A DNA stretch of 64,000 nucleotides from Acidimicrobiales bacterium (GCA_052143575.1 JBKQSP010000051.1:6308-70307); one strand, 5' to 3'. Numbered from the stretch's first letter, positions 57,300 through 64,000 are shown. A program made the numbers and translations. Notes: generated by a model from the sequence alone, not told the origin.

Positions 57300-58556
57300 A
57301 TGGAGCTGCTCCGCTTCGCCACGGCCGGCTCGGTCGACGACGGCAAGTCGACGCTGATCGGCCGCCTGCTCTACGACTCGAAGCAGGTGTTCGAGGATCA
57401 GCTGCAGGCGGTCGAGGCCTCCAGCCTGGCGCGTGGAGACGACTACACGAACCTGGCCCTGCTCACCGACGGCCTGCGGGCCGAGCGTGAGCAGGGCATC
57501 ACGATCGACGTCGCCTACCGCTACTTCGCCACCCCGAAACGCAAGTTCATCATCGCCGACACCCCAGGCCACACCCAGCACACGCGCAACATGGTGACGG
57601 GTTGCTCCACCGCCGACCTCGTCGTCCTGCTCGTCGACGCACGTCTCGGCCCCACCGAGCAGACTCGCCGGCACGCCACCGTCGCCTCGCTGCTCGGCAT
57701 CCGCCACCTCGTGCTCTGCATCAACAAGATGGACCTCGTCGACTGGGACCGGAAGCGCTTCGAGGAGATCCGCCGGGAGTTCGACGACTTCGCCACCCGG
57801 CTGCAGGTGACGGATCTGACCTACATCCCGATGTCGGCCCTGGAGGGTGACAACGTCGTCGAGCGCTCGGCGGAGATGAAGTGGTACGACGGTCCCTCCC
57901 TCCTGCACCACCTCGAGGAGGTGCACATCTCCTCGGACCGCAACCTCATCGACTTCCGCTTCGCCGTGCAGCGGGTGGTGCGGCCCATCTCCTCGAGCGA
58001 CCTGCACGACTTCCGCGGCTACGCCGGCCAGGTCTCGAGCGGGGTGGTGCAGGTCGGCGACCCCGTCGTGGTGCTGCCGTCCGGCTTTGCGTCCACGATC
58101 GAGGCGATCGAGACGGCCGACGGTCCCCTCGAGGAGGCCTACCCGCCCATGTCGGTGCTGCTGCGGTTGAGCGATGACCTCGACATCTCGCGGGGCGACA
58201 TGCTCTGCCGGCCGCACAACCAGCCGAGTATCGGGCAGGACCTCTCTGCCATGGTGTGCTGGATGGCGGAGGCGCCGCTCCGGCCGGGCGCCAAGCTGTG
58301 GCTGAAGCACACGACCCGCTGGGTGCGAGCCCTCGTGAAGGATCTGCAGTACCGGCTCGACGTCAACACGCTGCACCGGGACCTGGCCGCCGGCGAGCTC
58401 GCCCTCAACGAGATCGGCCGGATCGACCTTCGCACGACCCTGCCGCTGTTATTCGACGAGTACCGGTTGAACCGGCGGACGGGCAGTTTCGTGCTCGTGG
58501 ACGACGCCACGAACGCAACCGTGGCGGCGGGGATGATCCTTCGACCGAGCACCTGA
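57300..58556 (+). CDS. cysN: sulfate adenylyltransferase subunit 1 (GTPase)
   Basis: GTPase motifs G1 GSVDDGKST, G3 DTPGH and G4 NKMD. Starts directly after the cysD stop. Confidence 0.93.
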   Translation: MELLRFATAGSVDDGKSTLIGRLLYDSKQVFEDQLQAVEASSLARGDDYTNLALLTDGLRAEREQGITIDVAYRYFATPKRKFIIADTPGHTQHTRNMVTGCSTADLVVLLVDARLGPTEQTRRHATVASLLGIRHLVLCINKMDLVDWDRKRFEEIRREFDDFATRLQVTDLTYIPMSALEGDNVVERSAEMKWYDGPSLLHHLEEVHISSDRNLIDFRFAVQRVVRPISSSDLHDFRGYAGQVSSGVVQVGDPVVVLPSGFASTIEAIETADGPLEEAYPPMSVLLRLSDDLDISRGDMLCRPHNQPSIGQDLSAMVCWMAEAPLRPGAKLWLKHTTRWVRALVKDLQYRLDVNTLHRDLAAGELALNEIGRIDLRTTLPLLFDEYRLNRRTGSFVLVDDATNATVAAGMILRPST

Positions 58557-58566
58557 GGCCCGTGTC

Positions 58567-59196
58567 GTGACGGGGGGATCGGCGGGAGGCACGGCTCACG
58601 GCGCCGTGCCCGAGGCGGTCGTGGACGAGAGCTGGCCGACGACGCCGGCCTCCGTGGCGACACGGGGCACGATCTGGTTCACGGGCCTCTCCGGGGCCGG
58701 CAAGACGACGGTGGCGACGACGCTCAAGGTCATGCTCGACGCCCTCGCCGTGCGAACGTTTCTCCTCGACGGCGACGTGCTGCGTTCCGGGCTCAACTCG
58801 GACCTCACCTTCAGCGACGAGGACCGCGCCGAGAACGTGCGGCGCATCGGCGAGGTGGCCCTGCTCTTCGCCGGCGTCGGCCACCTCTCGCTCGTGACGG
58901 TCATCAGCCCCTATGACGCCGGCCGCACGGCCGTGCGCGCCCGCCACGCCGCCGTCGGCGTCCCTTTCCTCGAGGTGTACGTGGCCACCCCGCTCGAGGT
59001 CTGCGAGCAGCGCGACCCGAAGGGGCTCTACGCCCGCGCCCGCCGGGGCGAGGTGACCCGCTTCACCGGCATCTCGGCGCCCTACGAGGTACCGGAGGAC
59101 GCCGAGCTCGAGATCTTCACGACGGACCGGACACCGGTGCAGTCGGCCACCGAAGTCTTCGAGCTGCTCGTCGAGCGAGGGCTCATCACGGGCTGA
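58567..59196 (+). CDS. cysC: adenylyl-sulfate kinase
   Basis: P-loop FTGLSGAGKTT and ISPY motif. A separate gene, not fused to cysN. Confidence 0.87.
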   Translation: MTGGSAGGTAHGAVPEAVVDESWPTTPASVATRGTIWFTGLSGAGKTTVATTLKVMLDALAVRTFLLDGDVLRSGLNSDLTFSDEDRAENVRRIGEVALLFAGVGHLSLVTVISPYDAGRTAVRARHAAVGVPFLEVYVATPLEVCEQRDPKGLYARARRGEVTRFTGISAPYEVPEDAELEIFTTDRTPVQSATEVFELLVERGLITG

Positions 59197-59211
59197 GGGC
59201 CTCCGGCGGGC

Positions 59212-59547
59212 GTGGCGGTAGCCTGCGTCATGACCGAAGACGCCTCACCGCCGGCATCGATGCCCGACGAGCTGAGCAGCCACCACCGGGACACGCTCGA
59301 GCACCTTTTTCGTCATCCCGCCGGTCACAACATCGAGTGGCACGACGTTCTCTCGTTGCTCGAGGCGGTGGGCTCTGTCCGCGAGACCCACGACGGCAAC
59401 TTCCTCGTGACGCTCGGCAGTGAGACCGAGACCTTCGAACGGCCGCCCCACAAGGACATCGACACGCAACAGGTCGTCGACTTGCGGCGGATGCTGCGGG
59501 CCGCCGGCTACAGCGACTCGCAGGCTACGGAGAGCACGGCCGAATGA
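59212..59547 (+). CDS. small hypothetical protein (possible HicA-like fold family)
   Basis: 111 aa (alternative ATG 59230). The pattern TLEHLFRHPAGHNIEWHDVLSLLEAVG…FERPPHKD…VVDLRRMLRAAG recalls, from memory, small proteins often annotated HicA-like. No partner gene is seen. Confidence 0.5.
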   Translation: MAVACVMTEDASPPASMPDELSSHHRDTLEHLFRHPAGHNIEWHDVLSLLEAVGSVRETHDGNFLVTLGSETETFERPPHKDIDTQQVVDLRRMLRAAGYSDSQATESTAE

Positions 59548-59705
59548 GGACTCACCGCGGCTGACACGACGGTGGGAGAACCGTCGGGCACGTGACCGGC
59601 GCCCCGCCTCGATAGGCTCCAGCCTGCAGAGATGCCCGCCTGCGCGGGCGAAACGGGCGGTGAAGATCGCCCCGGTGCGGCGTAGCCGCACCCGAGACAC
59701 GGGAG

Positions 59706-61139
59706 GTGATCCGGCTGACTGCTGTCGGTTCCGATCCGTCGAACACGTTCGACATCGTTGTGATCGGCGGAGGCCCTGGTGGGTACGCGGCTGCCCTCTA
59801 TGCGGGCAATGCCGGGCTCAGCGTGGCCGTCGTCGAGAAGGAGAAGGTCGGCGGGACCTGCTTGCACCGGGGGTGCATCCCTGCCAAGGAGTTCCTCGAG
59901 ACGGCGGCCGTGTTCCGCGCCGTCGGCGGCGCCAAGGAGTTCGGAGTGCAGGCGAGCCAGCCCACCGTCGAATTCTCCATCAGCCAGGACCGCAAGCAGA
60001 AAGTCGTCGAGCAGTTGCACCGGGGGCTCTCGGGCCTCATGAAGCAGCGCAAGAACGTCATCTTCGAGGGCACCGGGCGGCTGCTGGCCGACCACGTCGT
60101 CGAGGTGACCGCCCCGGACGGATCCACCCGGGCCATCTCCGGTACGAACGTCGTGCTGGCGTCGGGCTCGGTGCCGAGGACGCTGCCGGGCTTCGAGGTG
60201 GATGGGCGTTTCGTCCTCACCTCCGACGAGGTCCTCGCTCTGCGCGAGCTGCCGCGGACCGCCGTCGTGATCGGCGGCGGGGCCATCGGCTGTGAGTTCG
60301 CCTCCATGCTCTCCGACCTGGGCGTGCAGGTCACCATCCTCGAGGTGCTCCCGAAACTGCTCCCCGGCTGCGACGAGGACGTCGTCAACCTCGTCGTGCG
60401 CTCCTTCCAGAAGCGGGGCATCACGGTGCGGGCCGGCGTGGCCGTGCACCGGCACGAGCCGGGCGAGGCGGGGACGACGGTCAGCTTCGGCGATGGTGAG
60501 TCAGTGCTCGTCGACAGCGTCATCGTCTCGGTCGGCCGCCGCCCCCTCTCTGACGGCCTGCTGGCGGAGGGCACGGGCGTCGTCGTGGACGGGCGGGGTT
60601 TTGTCGAGGTGGACGAATGGATGCGGACGGCCGCCGCCGGCGTCTTTGCCGTCGGCGATCTCGTCAACACGCCGCAGCTCGCCCACGTCGGCTTTGCCGA
60701 GGCCATCCTCGTCGTCAAGCAGATCCTCGGTGAGCGGGCCGTGCCGGTGAACTACGGCGCCGTGCCGTGGGGGATCTACTGCCACCCGGAGGTCGCCTTC
60801 GTGGGCATGACGGAGGAGGGGGCCAAAGCCGCCGGCATCGACGTCGTCGTGAAGAAGGATCCCTACGGTGGCAACAGCCGCGCCCGCATCCTCGGCGAGA
60901 CCGAGGGCATGGTGAAGGTCATCGCAGAGCGCATGGCTGACGGCTCGGCCGGTCGGCTGCTCGGCGTCCACATGGTGGGCCCGTGGGTGACCGAACAGCT
61001 CGGGCAGGCTTACTTGTCCGTCAACTGGGAGGCGACGCCCGACGAGATCGGCGCCTTCATCCAGCCGCACCCGACACTGTCCGAGACATTCGGCGAGACC
61101 GTCCTCGCCCTCACGGGAAGGGGCCTGCACCTTGCCTGA
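59706..61139 (+). CDS. lpd: dihydrolipoyl dehydrogenase (E3)
   Basis: FAD motif VVIGGGPGGY and redox disulfide GGTCLHRGCIPAK. C-terminal interface domain HPTLSE. Confidence 0.93.
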   Translation: MIRLTAVGSDPSNTFDIVVIGGGPGGYAAALYAGNAGLSVAVVEKEKVGGTCLHRGCIPAKEFLETAAVFRAVGGAKEFGVQASQPTVEFSISQDRKQKVVEQLHRGLSGLMKQRKNVIFEGTGRLLADHVVEVTAPDGSTRAISGTNVVLASGSVPRTLPGFEVDGRFVLTSDEVLALRELPRTAVVIGGGAIGCEFASMLSDLGVQVTILEVLPKLLPGCDEDVVNLVVRSFQKRGITVRAGVAVHRHEPGEAGTTVSFGDGESVLVDSVIVSVGRRPLSDGLLAEGTGVVVDGRGFVEVDEWMRTAAAGVFAVGDLVNTPQLAHVGFAEAILVVKQILGERAVPVNYGAVPWGIYCHPEVAFVGMTEEGAKAAGIDVVVKKDPYGGNSRARILGETEGMVKVIAERMADGSAGRLLGVHMVGPWVTEQLGQAYLSVNWEATPDEIGAFIQPHPTLSETFGETVLALTGRGLHLA

Positions 61140-62520
61140 CATCACGATGCCGCAGCTGGGTGAGACCGTCACCGAGGGCACGATCATCAAGTGGCTGAAG
61201 AATGTCGGTGACACGATCGTGCAGGACGAGCCGCTCTTCGAGGTCTCGACGGACAAAGTCGACTCCGAGGTGCCCTCGCCGGCCGAAGGCGTCATCACCG
61301 AGATCCTCGTGCCCGAGGGCGCCACGGTCGACATCGGGACCCGCTTGGCGGTCATCGGGGAGGCCGGTTCGGCCCCGGAGCCGGCTGCGGCACCGGCTCC
61401 GAAACCGGAGCCGGTTGCCGAGCACGCTCCGCCCTCCCCTCCGGCCGAGCCGGAAACCCCTGAGGCTGCGGTGGAGCCGACACCCGCAGACGTTGTCGCT
61501 GTGGCCGAAGAAACCCCCTCGCCCCGTGGCAACGGGGCCGGCGGCCTGCTCTCACCGGTGGTGCGCAAGCTCGTCAACGAGCACGGGCTCGACCCGTCCC
61601 TCATCCGCGGGACGGGGCAAGGCGGCCGCATCACCCGGGGCGACGTGCTCGGGTACCTCGACGCCCAGGCGACGGCGGGCGCCGGCGGTGTGGCCCCGTC
61701 GCTGGCGGGCGGTCGAGAGGCGCCGCCACGGCCGGCTGCGGCTGCGGCTCCGGCCGTGGCCTCAGGGGCCGGCGACTCCCGCGGGTTCCCGCCGGCCTTA
61801 CCGGGCGAGAGGGACGAGGTCGTGCCCTTCTCGAACATCCGCCGGCTGACGGCCGAGCACATGGTTCGCTCGAAGGCAACGTCTGCTCACACCCTCGTCG
61901 TCGTGGAGGCCGACTACGAGGGCATCGACCGCGTCCGGCGGCGGGAGAAGGACCGCTTCAAGGAACAGGAGGGCGTTTCGCTCACCTACCTTCCGTTTGT
62001 GGCACGGGCTGTCGTCGACGTTCTGCGCGACTACCCGAACCTGAATGCCTCCGTGGGCGACGGGACCCTCATCGTGCACCGTGACGTCCACCTCGGGATC
62101 GCCGTTGACCTCGACCGCCAGGGCCTCATCGTGCCCGTCGTGCGCCAAGCCGATGGGCAGTCGTTGCGGGGTCTCGCCCGCGCCATCGCCGATCTCGCCG
62201 AGCGGGCGCGCTCCCGCCGCCTCTCGGCAGACGACGTCGTCGGCGGTACGTTCACGATCACGAACCCGGGCCCGTTCGGCACAGTCATCACGGCTCCGAT
62301 CATCAACCAGCCTCAGGTGGCCATCCTCTCCACCGACGGCGTGAAGCGCCGACCGGTCGTCGTGACGGCGGGCGATGGGACAGAGGCCATCGCCATCCAC
62401 TCCGTCGGCATGCTGGCAATGTCGTTCGATCACCGTGCCGTCGACGGCGCCTACGCGTCCGCTTTCCTGCGTGACCTCGCCCACGAGATCGAAACCCGTG
62501 ACTGGGCCTCCGAGCTGTAA
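61132..62520 (+). CDS. dihydrolipoamide acyltransferase (E2 of a 2-oxoacid dehydrogenase complex)
   Basis: Lipoyl domain (EVSTDKVDSEVPSP), Ala/Pro linkers, E3-binding domain (LSPVVRKLVNEHGLD) and catalytic DHRAVDG. 8-nt overlap with lpd; an alternative start is ATG 61147. Confidence 0.92.
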   Translation: MPDITMPQLGETVTEGTIIKWLKNVGDTIVQDEPLFEVSTDKVDSEVPSPAEGVITEILVPEGATVDIGTRLAVIGEAGSAPEPAAAPAPKPEPVAEHAPPSPPAEPETPEAAVEPTPADVVAVAEETPSPRGNGAGGLLSPVVRKLVNEHGLDPSLIRGTGQGGRITRGDVLGYLDAQATAGAGGVAPSLAGGREAPPRPAAAAAPAVASGAGDSRGFPPALPGERDEVVPFSNIRRLTAEHMVRSKATSAHTLVVVEADYEGIDRVRRREKDRFKEQEGVSLTYLPFVARAVVDVLRDYPNLNASVGDGTLIVHRDVHLGIAVDLDRQGLIVPVVRQADGQSLRGLARAIADLAERARSRRLSADDVVGGTFTITNPGPFGTVITAPIINQPQVAILSTDGVKRRPVVVTAGDGTEAIAIHSVGMLAMSFDHRAVDGAYASAFLRDLAHEIETRDWASEL

Positions 62521-62523
62521 CCC

Positions 62524-64000
62524 GTGACGCCGCTTCGCATCCGCTGGCTGGGCCGCGTCCGCTACCAGGAGGCGCTCGATCTCCAGCACGCCATTCGGGA
62601 TGCCCGCACCGGCGACTACCTCCTGTTGCTCGAGCACCCGCACGTCTACACCCTTGGCGTGCGCACGAAGCCCGAGCACCTCTTGGCAGGCGTCGCCTCC
62701 TCCGGTGCCGACGTCGTGCGGGCGGACCGGGGCGGCGACGTCACCTACCACGGTCCCGGGCAGCTCGTGGGCTATCCGGTGCTCGACGTCCCGATGGGCC
62801 CGGCCACCGTTCCGGCCTACGTGCGCCGCATCGAGCAGCTCGTGATAGACGTGCTGGCCGACGTCGGCCTCGGTGACACGGGGCGCCTCGACGGCTACCC
62901 GGGGGTGTGGGTCGAGCCCGGCGGCCACCGCCCGCGGAAGATCTGCGCCATCGGGGTACGAGTGGACCGGGGGAGGTCGATGCACGGCTTCGCCCTCAAC
63001 GTCGACCCCGACCTGACCATGTTCGGGAACATCGTGCCCTGTGGCATCCCGGACAAGCCCGTCACCTCGCTTGCCGCCGAGGGCATCGACGTGTCGATGC
63101 GGGACGTCGTCGAGGCCGTGTGCCGCCGAGCTGCTTCGGGCCTCTCGTTCGGAGCGGGGGAGCGCCGGATCGAGGTGCACTCGGCCGCCTGGAGGCCGCC
63201 GAGCGAGCCGGCGGAGAGCGCCGGCGGCTCGGCCGTCGCCCCTGTCGTCATCCGTTCGCTCGACCGCCGGCTCGCCACTGCCGGCGTCGACCCGAACGGT
63301 GGCATCTCCTTTCACTCCCGAAAGCCGGACTACTTGCGCGCCCCGGTCAGGCTCGGCACCGAGGTCCTCGGGCTGCGCTCGCTGGTGCGCGGGCTCAACC
63401 TCGTGACCGTGTGCGAGGAGGCGGGCTGCCCGAACCTGTCGGAGTGCTGGGCAGACGGCACGGCCACGTTCATGATCAACGGCGAGCGTTGTACGCGGGC
63501 GTGTGGCTTCTGCCTGGTGGATACCCGCCATCCGGTGCCCCTCGACCCCGAGGAGCCCGAGCACGTCGCCGATGCCGTTGTGCGGCTCGGCCTCGCCCAC
63601 GCCGTCGTTACCGCCGTCGCCCGTGACGATCTCGCCGACGGAGGCGCCGCCGCCTTCGCGGCCACCGTGGGCGCCATCCGCCGCCGCAGCGCCGGCACGG
63701 CCGTCGAAGTCCTCGTCTCGGACTGCAAGGGCGATGCCGACTCGCAGGCCGTGATCTTCGCCAGCCGCCCCGACGTGCTCAACCACAACGTCGAGACGGT
63801 GCTCCGCCTGCAGCGCGCCGTCCGTACGTCGGCGCACTACGCCCGGAGCCTCACTCTGCTCGCCCGCGCAAAAGCTGCAGGTCTCGTGACGAAATCCGGC
63901 ATGATCCTCGGCATGGGCGAGACCCTGCCCGAGATCGAGGCCACCCTCCTCGACCTGCGCGCCGTCGGCGTCGACATCGTCACGATCGGCCAGTACCTGC
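62524..64000 (+). CDS. lipB-lipA: octanoyltransferase LipB and lipoyl synthase LipA encoded in one continuous reading frame (apparent LipB-LipA fusion); 3' end beyond window
   Basis: I translated frame 1 codon by codon from GTG 62524 (3 nt after the E2 TAA) to 64000 and found no stop. LipB motifs are HGPGQLVGYP, RKICAIGVRV and IVPCGI. LipA motifs are RKPDYLRAP (from 63319), CEEAGCPNLSEC, CTRACGFC and NHNVETV. The ORF is absent from the track, consistent with being open-ended. Confidence 0.85.
   Translation, partial: MTPLRIRWLGRVRYQEALDLQHAIRDARTGDYLLLLEHPHVYTLGVRTKPEHLLAGVASSGADVVRADRGGDVTYHGPGQLVGYPVLDVPMGPATVPAYVRRIEQLVIDVLADVGLGDTGRLDGYPGVWVEPGGHRPRKICAIGVRVDRGRSMHGFALNVDPDLTMFGNIVPCGIPDKPVTSLAAEGIDVSMRDVVEAVCRRAASGLSFGAGERRIEVHSAAWRPPSEPAESAGGSAVAPVVIRSLDRRLATAGVDPNGGISFHSRKPDYLRAPVRLGTEVLGLRSLVRGLNLVTVCEEAGCPNLSECWADGTATFMINGERCTRACGFCLVDTRHPVPLDPEEPEHVADAVVRLGLAHAVVTAVARDDLADGGAAAFAATVGAIRRRSAGTAVEVLVSDCKGDADSQAVIFASRPDVLNHNVETVLRLQRAVRTSAHYARSLTLLARAKAAGLVTKSGMILGMGETLPEIEATLLDLRAVGVDIVTIGQYL

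What the first reader, a model, noticed from the sequence alone, without database searches (positions are those of the whole stretch)
62524..64000. lipB and lipA are one uninterrupted reading frame: an apparent bifunctional octanoyltransferase-lipoyl synthase
Codon-by-codon translation from GTG 62524 runs through a complete LipB domain with its catalytic Lys (RKICAIGV) and Cys (IVPCGI). A linker of about 55 aa follows (…GERRIEVHSAAWRPPSEPAESAGGSAVAPVVIRSLDRRLATAGVDPNGGISFHS). The frame then continues straight into LipA, with the auxiliary cluster motif CEEAGCPNLSEC and the radical-SAM motif CTRACGFC. No stop codon occurs before the window end.

In Mycobacterium and most bacteria these are adjacent but separate genes. 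A fusion would channel the octanoyl-domain substrate between the two steps of lipoate biosynthesis, right next to the E2 gene that receives the cofactor.

An internal in-frame GTG (63175) could additionally give a free-standing LipA.
Basis: seen in the sequence. Interest (0 to 1): 0.6.

Follow-up and report, generated by a model that had tools for sequence, protein, structure and literature searches.

The report
Conserved fused LipB–LipA lipoate enzyme
The two enzymes that build the lipoic acid cofactor on its target proteins are really encoded as one fused protein here, but the same fusion occurs in many uncultured Acidimicrobiales and several other bacterial groups and is already in the databases, so it is real but only moderately new.

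Summary
From GTG 62524 a single stop-free frame runs to the window end. It encodes a complete LipB octanoyltransferase domain, a short variable linker and a LipA lipoyl synthase domain. The full protein is 553 aa.

It is not an error. Six independent metagenome assemblies give identical DNA. All 80 related species genomes fetched (Acidimicrobiales/Acidimicrobiia) keep both domains in one ORF. Their linkers have 35 different lengths, all in frame, with 0 stops in 2071 linker codons against 21–23 in the other frames. Linker GC3 (0.91) matches the coding frame. All catalytic residues are invariant.

The truly variable linker is about 20 aa, not 55. The rest is a conserved LipB C-terminal strand and a LipA N-terminal helix. 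The proposed internal GTG 63175 start is not conserved.

The architecture is not unique. LipB–LipA fusions, and reverse LipA–LipB ones, also occur in Planctomycetota, Sumerlaeota and cultured Propionispora. UniProt labels the Propionispora protein "Multifunctional fusion protein"; NCBI calls these proteins just "lipoyl synthase". I found no paper describing the fusion.

AlphaFold gives pTM 0.89 for this protein against 0.61 for the Propionispora fusion. This hints at docked domains in the Acidimicrobiales type.

Verdict: a real bifunctional gene, a member of an uncharacterised but database-known architecture, of moderate interest.

The parts
62524..64000 (+). lipB-lipA fused ORF (lipBA). It is truncated by the window end; the full gene is 1662 nt / 553 aa and would stop at about 64183-64185.
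   Evidence: No stop in 492 codons. An identical 553-aa protein, P0001, is in the database. The start is supported by homologues beginning MTPLRIRWLG and by the JGI gene call.
62524..63192 (+). LipB octanoyltransferase domain (aa 1-223). It includes the conserved C-terminal segment RRIEVHSAAW (aa 214-223, predicted strand 216-220).
   Evidence: PF21948 at aa 14-201. NF010925 scores 209 bits against a cut-off of 155, and TIGR00214 scores 151 against 83.55. It aligns to Mtb LipB 1W66 residues 14-208. The AF2 model against 1W66 gives TMt 0.80. The 'veRQDvaW' motif is conserved in 81 junctions.
62938..62940 (+). Codon of catalytic Lys139 (RKICAIG).
   Evidence: Aligns with Mtb LipB K142. Invariant in 63 fusion proteins.
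63040..63042 (+). Codon of the acyl-thioester Cys173 (VPCGI).
   Evidence: Aligns with Mtb LipB C176. Invariant in 63 fusion proteins.
63193..63252 (+). Variable Ala/Pro/Gly/Ser-rich interdomain linker (aa 224-243, RPPSEPAESAGGSAVAPVVI).
   Evidence: Low-occupancy, unalignable columns in 81 junctions. Length is 9-60 aa (median 21) with 35 distinct lengths, and there are 0 stops in 2071 codons. AF2 pLDDT is below 50 for residues 226-243. GC3 is 0.91 in frame.
63175..63177 (+). It is not conserved.
   Evidence: It lies in the conserved LipB C-terminal strand. The aligned column is mostly Arg in relatives. No linker column has a start codon in more than 29 of 81 sequences, and those are ordinary Val GTG codons.
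63253..64000 (+). LipA lipoyl synthase domain (aa 244-492 in the window, to aa 553 in full). It begins with the conserved helix R-LDRRLATAGVD.
   Evidence: NF004019 scores 370 bits against 203, and TIGR00510 scores 315.5 against 310.25, for full-length P0001. It aligns to Mtb LipA 5EXI residues 43-325. The AF2 model against 5EXK gives TMt 0.90.
63412..63447 (+). Auxiliary [4Fe-4S] cluster motif CX4CX5C (C297, C302, C308).
   Evidence: Sequence CEEAGCPNLSEC. The three cysteines are invariant. The fourth ligand motif, RSSY (aa 532-535), is present in full-length P0001 beyond the window.
63490..63513 (+). Radical-SAM cluster motif CX3CX2C (C323, C327, C330).
   Evidence: Sequence CTRACGFC. The cysteines are invariant. 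Radical_SAM PF04055 covers aa 321-477.
61147..62520 (+). E2 dihydrolipoamide acyltransferase, the lipoylation substrate. Its stop codon lies 3 nt before the lipBA start.
   Evidence: Biotin_lipoyl, E3_binding and 2-oxoacid_dh domains. The lipoyl-lysine motif is STDKVDS. E2 sits immediately upstream in 74 of 76 related loci.
59706..61139 (+). E3 dihydrolipoamide dehydrogenase, the first gene of the E3-E2-lipBA cluster.
   Evidence: Pyr_redox_2 and Pyr_redox_dim domains. E3 lies upstream on the same strand in 53 related loci.

Best explanation
The region encodes a genuine single-polypeptide LipB-LipA fusion of 553 aa (about 60 kDa) in an uncultured Acidimicrobiales bacterium. The gene sits in an E3-E2-lipBA cluster.

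Proposed mechanism, from established LipB and LipA enzymology:
1. The N-terminal LipB domain takes octanoate from octanoyl-ACP onto Cys173.
2. With Lys139, it transfers the octanoyl group to the lipoyl-lysine of the E2 lipoyl domain (encoded immediately upstream) or of GcvH.
3. The C-terminal LipA domain uses its radical-SAM [4Fe-4S] cluster (C323/C327/C330) to generate 5'-deoxyadenosyl radicals.
4. Its auxiliary cluster (C297/C302/C308 plus the Ser of RSSY) serves as the sulfur donor, converting the protein-bound octanoyl group to lipoyl.

Inferred consequences of the fusion: equimolar synthesis of the two enzymes, and LipA held next to the newly octanoylated domain. The tether is a flexible Ala/Pro/Gly/Ser linker of about 20 aa, flanked by two conserved junction elements. 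In this lineage the two domains may dock on each other.

Inferred origin: loss of the lipB stop codon between the adjacent lipB and lipA genes typical of Actinomycetota.

What is shown: ORF continuity, conservation, intact catalytic motifs, synteny. What is inferred: a single polypeptide in vivo, both activities, and any kinetic benefit.
For: - The ORF is open through both domains.
- The catalytic dyad and all cluster ligands are present and invariant in 63 fusions.
- Six independent JGI metagenome assemblies give identical DNA.
- More than 120 database clusters at 66-100% identity are all 534-597 aa with both domains.
- 80 of 80 species genomes are fused.
- The linker has 35 distinct lengths, all in frame, with 0 stops in 2071 codons against 23 and 21 out of frame. 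Linker GC3 is 0.91.
- There is no conserved internal start codon.
- E2 lies directly upstream in 74 of 76 loci, with the lipoyl-lysine motif present.
- AF2 gives both domains confident and only residues 226-243 disordered, with pTM 0.89. The compact Propionispora fusion used as a control gives pTM 0.61.
- The same architecture occurs in cultured isolates (Propionispora vibrioides WP_091744105.1, P. hippei WP_149735090.1) and is labelled 'Multifunctional fusion protein' by UniProt.
Against: - There is no protein-level evidence (mass, junction peptides, activity) for any member.
- In this particular genome an SD-like GGAG precedes GTG 63175, so some internal initiation cannot be excluded.
- The docking inference rests only on a pTM value; no coordinates or PAE could be inspected. 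The control alignment A2 was heterogeneous, which may itself lower pTM.
- The 81 linkers are phylogenetically related, so the stop-codon statistic overstates independence.
Confidence: 0.85

Rival explanations
1. The ORF is continuous, but the cell also, or mainly, makes a free-standing LipA by internal initiation (for example at GTG 63175). The fusion would then be only one of two products.
For: GTG 63175 is in frame and has a GGAG-like sequence within 4-16 nt upstream. 76 of 81 orthologues have some in-frame ATG/GTG/TTG in the junction, 27 of them with an SD-like sequence.
Against: No junction column carries a conserved start codon. The window's GTG aligns to a mostly-Arg column inside a conserved LipB strand. 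The most frequent 'starts' are ordinary Val GTG codons in 25-29 of 81 sequences. Selection has kept frame and openness across 35 linker lengths, which would be unnecessary if LipA were made separately.
Confidence: 0.08
2. The fusion polypeptide is made but then cleaved in the disordered linker, giving separate LipB and LipA enzymes. The fusion would serve only co-expression and stoichiometry.
For: The linker is disordered and protease-accessible (pLDDT below 50 at residues 226-243). Its sequence and length are unconstrained.
Against: No conserved cleavage motif exists in the variable region. Compact fusions in other phyla have almost no linker. The conserved junction elements and high pTM suggest an integrated architecture.
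Confidence: 0.05
3. Sequencing or assembly artefact, or a recent neutral loss of the lipB stop codon: a chance open frame in a 70% GC genome with no functional meaning.
For: High-GC DNA has few stop codons. Out-of-frame stop density in the linkers is only about 1% per codon. A 679-aa antisense shadow ORF overlaps the region.
Against: Six independent assemblies give identical DNA. 80 of 80 species are fused. About 22 stops would be expected in the pooled linkers and none is observed, with 35 in-frame length variants. The coding-frame GC3 signature runs through the linker. Fusions are present in isolate genomes.
Confidence: 0.02

Closest known systems
Separate LipB (Rv2217, PDB 1W66) and LipA (Rv2218, PDB 5EXI/5EXJ/5EXK) of Mycobacterium tuberculosis
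   Same: The domains are homologous. The Cys-Lys dyad is the same, as are the CX4CX5C, CX3CX2C and RSSY motifs. The folds match, with TMt 0.80 and 0.90. From general knowledge of the Mtb locus, the gene order is also the same: E2, then lipB, then lipA.
   Different: In M. tuberculosis they are two polypeptides. Here there is one ORF with a linker of about 20 aa, plus a conserved LipB C-terminal strand and a LipA N-terminal helix at the junction.
LipB-LipA fusion of Propionispora vibrioides / P. hippei (WP_091744105.1, UniRef100_A0A1H8R2W1 'Multifunctional fusion protein')
   Same: The domain order is the same, LipB then LipA, in one protein. Both halves pass the NCBIfam LipB and LipA models.
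   Different: It is about 49% identical to the Planctomycetota query P0144; its identity to the window protein was not measured. The junction is compact, with the LipB Cys 84 aa from the auxiliary cluster instead of 125 aa, and it lacks both the variable linker and the Acidimicrobiales junction motifs. AF2 pTM is 0.61 against 0.89. It probably arose by an independent fusion event (a rough tree).
NCBIfam NF053790 LplA_LipA_fuse (bifunctional lipoate-protein ligase / lipoyl synthase)
   Same: It follows the same logic: a lipoyl/octanoyl-attaching enzyme of the LplA/LipB superfamily fused N-terminally to LipA.
   Different: The N-terminal partner there is an ATP-dependent LplA ligase, not LipB. 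The window protein scores 332 bits against a cut-off of 800, and only over its LipA part.
Reverse-order LipA-LipB fusions (P0149, P0152, P0164, P0204, P0215, P0167)
   Same: The same two enzymes are in one polypeptide.
   Different: The domain order is reversed, with a connector of about 20 aa after RSSY. These must be independent fusion events.

Membership tests
LipB octanoyl-[ACP]:protein N-octanoyltransferase | Scores above the curated family cut-off | tested here: met
   NF010925 scores 209.3 bits against 155. TIGR00214 scores 150.7 against 83.55. PF21948 scores 148.5 against 27.
LipB octanoyl-[ACP]:protein N-octanoyltransferase | Catalytic Cys/Lys dyad (Mtb C176/K142) | tested here: met
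   C173 and K139 align to the Mtb residues and are invariant in 63 homologues.
LipB octanoyl-[ACP]:protein N-octanoyltransferase | LipB fold | tested here: met
   The AF2 model against 1W66 gives TMt 0.80, and against 2QHS gives TMt 0.87.
LipB octanoyl-[ACP]:protein N-octanoyltransferase | Octanoyl transfer activity | not testable with these tools
   Needs an enzyme assay or complementation of an E. coli lipB mutant.
LipA lipoyl synthase (radical SAM) | Scores above the curated family cut-off | tested here: met
   For full-length P0001, TIGR00510 scores 315.5 against 310.25, NF004019 scores 370.2 against 203, and NF009544 scores 371.8 against 210.
LipA lipoyl synthase (radical SAM) | CX3CX2C radical-SAM motif, CX4CX5C auxiliary-cluster motif and C-terminal RSSY serine ligand | tested here: met
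   C323/C327/C330, C297/C302/C308 and R532-S533-S534-Y535 are all invariant. RSSY lies beyond the window end but is in the identical full-length protein.
LipA lipoyl synthase (radical SAM) | LipA fold | tested here: met
   The AF2 model against Mtb LipA 5EXK gives TMt 0.90.
LipA lipoyl synthase (radical SAM) | Sulfur insertion activity | not testable with these tools
   Needs an anaerobic reconstituted assay or complementation of a lipA mutant.
LipB-LipA single-polypeptide fusion (UniProt 'Multifunctional fusion protein' type) | Both domains in one uninterrupted ORF, conserved in orthologues | tested here: met
LipB-LipA single-polypeptide fusion (UniProt 'Multifunctional fusion protein' type) | Made and retained as one polypeptide in vivo | not testable with these tools
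   No proteomic data are available. The absence of a conserved internal start is only indirect support.
NCBIfam NF053790 LplA_LipA_fuse | Full-length match above the cut-off, with an LplA-type N-terminal ligase domain | tested here: not met
   It scores 332.1 bits against a cut-off of 800. The match covers only profile positions 329-605, the LipA half.

The most novel reading that the evidence does not exclude
In the Acidimicrobiales lineage the fusion may be more than a tether. It could be a rigid, docked two-active-site enzyme. The conserved junction elements (LipB C-terminal strand 'veRQDvaW' and LipA N-terminal helix 'LDRRLAxAGVD') would hold the LipB and LipA active sites so that one bound lipoyl domain is octanoylated and then sulfurated without dissociating. 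That would be a true protein-substrate handover, and a natural scaffold for trapping the long-sought LipB-LipA-lipoyl domain assembly structurally.
Probability: 0.2. Interest if true: 0.55.

Novelty: new member of a known kind. Interest (0 to 1): 0.3.

Why it matters
There are three practical points.

1. Annotation. NCBI and JGI name these proteins only "lipoyl synthase". Pathway reconstructions for Acidimicrobiales, which are abundant in soil, peat and water, and for some Planctomycetota, Sumerlaeota and Negativicutes will therefore wrongly report LipB as missing. NCBIfam has a model for LplA-LipA fusions but none for LipB-LipA.

2. Functional coupling. Recurrent, independent fusion of the two enzymes, in both orders, is 'Rosetta-stone' evidence that LipB and LipA work as a physical unit on the same protein-bound substrate.

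3. A possible experimental handle. If the docked architecture hinted at by AlphaFold is real, the Acidimicrobiales protein would let one study how the octanoyl-lipoyl domain passes from transferase to synthase. No new chemistry is implied.

Tried and rejected
- **Looking for unfused close relatives.** The two candidates from the representative search were uninformative. P0136 (LipA only) is on a 1-kb contig whose end is a palindromic fold-back artefact. P0206 (LipB only) is followed by junk-like sequence on a 1.9-kb contig.
- **Internal start codon hypothesis.** Tested by column-wise start codon and SD counts, and rejected as a conserved feature.
- **Promoter/terminator scan of 59000-64000.** Nothing was found in the linker. 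The scan is uninformative for a 70% GC actinobacterium.
- **Antisense 679-aa ORF 61798-63837.** It has no Pfam hit and is treated as a high-GC shadow ORF.
- **Paralogues in the window.** None were found.
- **AlphaFold-database fold search.** This was meant to list UniProt fusions, but the library was unavailable. The PDB search showed that no solved chain covers both domains.
- **Literature.** Seven full-text searches and targeted reading found no description of a natural LipB-LipA fusion. The Cronan reviews and Hassan & Cronan 2011 are not held.

Full report
**Observation**

Translating the + strand from GTG 62524 to the window end gives 492 codons without a stop.
- Pfam places an LplA/LipB catalytic domain at aa 14-201, the end of LIAS_N at aa 264-302, and Radical_SAM at aa 321-477.
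- NCBIfam places LipB (NF010925) at aa 2-203 and lipoyl synthase (NF004019) at aa 267-492.
Lys139 (AAG 62938-62940) and Cys173 (TGT 63040-63042) align with the K142/C176 dyad of M. tuberculosis LipB.
- CEEAGCPNLSEC (63412-63447) is the auxiliary-cluster motif and CTRACGFC (63490-63513) is the radical-SAM motif. The LipA part aligns to Mtb LipA 5EXI residues 43-325.
- The window cuts the gene. An identical full-length protein of 553 aa (P0001) is in the database and carries the C-terminal RSSY motif.
- The start at 62524 is supported by homologues that begin MTPLRIRWLG with ATG and by the JGI gene call.

**Is the fusion real or an artefact?**

Four lines of evidence say it is real.
1. The identical protein is encoded on contigs from six different JGI metagenome samples. 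Their DNA is identical to the window over the whole gene.
2. A search of 5.8 billion proteins returned more than 120 clusters at 66-100% identity. All are 534-597 aa and all have both domains; where named, they come from Acidimicrobiales MAGs.
3. A scan of GTDB species genomes returned 80 loci, all Acidimicrobiales/Acidimicrobiia, including long-read assemblies and one complete chromosome. Stop-to-stop parsing found LipB and LipA in one ORF in 78 loci. The other two (L024, L026) failed only my strict regular expressions and are fused on inspection.
4. The coding signature runs straight through the junction. GC at codon positions 1/2/3 is 0.74/0.65/0.91 in the linker, against 0.76/0.47/0.91 in LipB and 0.73/0.50/0.90 in LipA.

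Pooled over 81 orthologues, the variable linkers hold 2071 codons with no in-frame stop, against 23 and 21 stops in the +1 and +2 frames. They come in 35 different lengths (9-60 aa, median 21), all of which preserve the frame. About 22 stops would be expected without selection, so the chance of none is of order e^-22. The sequences are related, so that figure is an upper bound on the significance. The many in-frame indels are independent evidence.

**Anatomy of the junction**

- A conserved LipB C-terminal segment ending in the motif 'veRQDvaW'. In the window this is RRIEVHSAAW, aa 214-223.
- A variable, unalignable stretch rich in Ala, Pro, Gly and Ser. In the window this is aa 224-243.
- A conserved 'r-LdRRLaxAGVDp' segment (window aa 244-256) leading to the RKP motif. 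The RKP motif lies a fixed 31 residues before the auxiliary cluster in all 80 loci.

AlphaFold2, run with a 63-sequence alignment, agrees. Both domains are confident, residues 216-220 form a strand, residues 245-252 form a helix, and of the junction only residues 226-243 fall below pLDDT 50. In that alignment K139, C173, C297, C302, C308, C323, C327, C330 and R532-S533-S534-Y535 are invariant, so both halves are under purifying selection. Full-length P0001 passes the curated cut-offs of both LipB equivalog models and of the LipA equivalog TIGR00510.

**Internal start**

The proposed GTG 63175 is Val218, inside the conserved LipB strand. In relatives that column is mostly Arg. Across the junction no column has a start codon in more than 29 of 81 sequences, and those columns are conserved valines that sometimes use GTG. 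An SD-like GGAG does precede the window's GTG, so minor internal initiation in this organism cannot be excluded. It is not a conserved feature of the family.

**Context**

The gene follows lpd (E3, 59706-61139) and the E2 acyltransferase (61147-62520). E2 carries the lipoyl-lysine motif STDKVDS and stops 3 nt before the lipBA start. E2 is immediately upstream in 74 of 76 related loci, and E3 is upstream in 53. On the longer contigs the next gene, an Xaa-Pro aminopeptidase-like protein, overlaps the lipBA stop by 4 nt. The enzyme is therefore made from the same, probably translationally coupled, message as its main substrate (inference). No second lipA or lipB lies in the window.

**How it most likely works**

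Each domain has everything needed for its textbook reaction. LipB takes octanoyl from ACP as a thioester on Cys173 and passes it to the lipoyl-lysine. LipA uses two SAM-derived radicals and its sacrificial auxiliary cluster to insert sulfur at C6 and C8. Both enzymes act on the same protein-bound substrate. A fusion would therefore guarantee 1:1 stoichiometry and keep LipA close to freshly octanoylated domains. This is an inference from the anatomy; nothing here measures activity.

One extra hint comes from AlphaFold.
- The model of the window protein has pTM 0.89, although its larger domain is only about 56% of the chain.
- The compact Propionispora fusion, modelled the same way, has higher pLDDT (90) but pTM 0.61, the value expected for two well-folded domains with no defined mutual orientation.
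- This suggests that the Acidimicrobiales protein docks its domains, perhaps through the conserved junction elements.
- I could not inspect coordinates or PAE, and the control alignment was heterogeneous. This is a lead, not a result.

**How widespread, and how new?**

An exhaustive HMMER search of 1.84 billion cluster representatives put fusions at the top. Of the best 150 hits, 88 are LipB-LipA, 7 are LipA-LipB in reverse order, 49 are LipA alone and 6 are LipB alone.

Named examples outside Actinomycetota:
- Candidatus Sumerlaeota (MCX7013382.1);
- Planctomycetota (MBN1422490.1, MCD6303805.1);
- the cultured Negativicutes Propionispora vibrioides (WP_091744105.1) and P. hippei DSM 15287 (WP_149735090.1).

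UniProt calls the Propionispora entries 'Multifunctional fusion protein', while RefSeq calls them 'lipoyl synthase'. These other fusions have a compact junction with almost no linker. In a rough neighbour-joining tree of the LipA domain, the Acidimicrobiia fusions form one clade, while the compact and reverse-order fusions scatter among stand-alone LipAs (no support values). That pattern, together with the two domain orders, points to several independent fusion events.

NCBIfam contains a model for an LplA-LipA fusion. The window protein matches it only over the LipA half, at 332 bits against a cut-off of 800, and no LipB-LipA model responded. No solved structure covers both domains. Seven full-text literature searches and targeted reading found no paper describing a natural LipB-LipA fusion. 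The main reviews are not in the held library, so I cannot say the fusion has never been mentioned.

**Verdict**

This is a real, selectively maintained lipB-lipA gene fusion, not an error or a chance open frame. It is a lineage-wide feature of Acidimicrobiales and one instance of an architecture that recurs in several phyla. That architecture is already visible in protein databases, though under-annotated and apparently uncharacterised. I rate it as a new member of a known kind, with moderate interest (0.3). It is useful for annotation and as a possible structural handle on LipB-to-LipA substrate handover, but it implies no new chemistry.

Noticed in passing
window 57300-59196 (+): cysN (sulfate adenylyltransferase GTPase subunit, 57300-58556) and cysC (APS kinase, 58567-59196) are separate adjacent genes directly upstream of the lpd-E2-lipBA cluster, on the same strand. 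The same arrangement appears on the JGI contigs. Whether sulfate activation is co-transcribed with the lipoate and 2-oxoacid dehydrogenase genes is unknown.
   Followed up: partly
window 59212-59547 (+): A small ORF (111 aa; called as 105 aa on the JGI contigs) lies between cysC and lpd. It has no Pfam hit.
   Followed up: no
window 61798-63837 (-): A 679-aa antisense ORF overlaps the end of E2 and most of lipBA. It has no Pfam hit and is most likely a shadow ORF of the kind common in 70% GC DNA.
   Followed up: partly
P0149, P0152, P0164, P0204, P0215, P0167: These are reverse-order LipA-LipB fusions of about 490-540 aa, with LipB starting about 20 aa after the RSSY motif. One is on a 7.85-Mb contig. 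Their taxa were not identified.
   Followed up: partly
NCBIfam scan of P0001 and P0327: NCBIfam release 20 has an 'exception' model for LplA-LipA fusions (NF053790), but no model responded specifically to LipB-LipA fusions. RefSeq, GenBank and JGI name them only 'lipoyl synthase', which hides the LipB function.
   Followed up: partly
AF2 models me5b882ac8478 and mb0ba8daf8830: pTM is 0.89 for the Acidimicrobiales fusion against 0.61 for the compact Propionispora fusion, even though the latter has higher pLDDT. This may mean a lineage-specific docked architecture. The interface could not be inspected.
   Followed up: partly
L081:1-30: A 1-kb GenBank metagenome contig carrying a truncated LipA begins with a perfect palindrome (ACCAACCGTCGT / ACGACGGTTGGT). 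It looks like a fold-back assembly artefact that creates a false stop just upstream of LipA.
   Followed up: no
window 61360-61431 (+) and 63193-63252 (+): The E2 interdomain linker (AGSAPEPAAAPAPKPEPVAEHAP) and the LipB-LipA linker share the same Ala/Pro-rich composition, typical of flexible tethers in 2-oxoacid dehydrogenase complexes.
   Followed up: no
L083:6659-9900 (downstream of the window end): Downstream of lipBA on the longer contigs are a Creatinase_N/Peptidase_M24 aminopeptidase gene (overlapping the lipBA stop by 4 nt), an APH-family kinase gene and a PAC2-family gene, all on the same strand and tightly packed.
   Followed up: no
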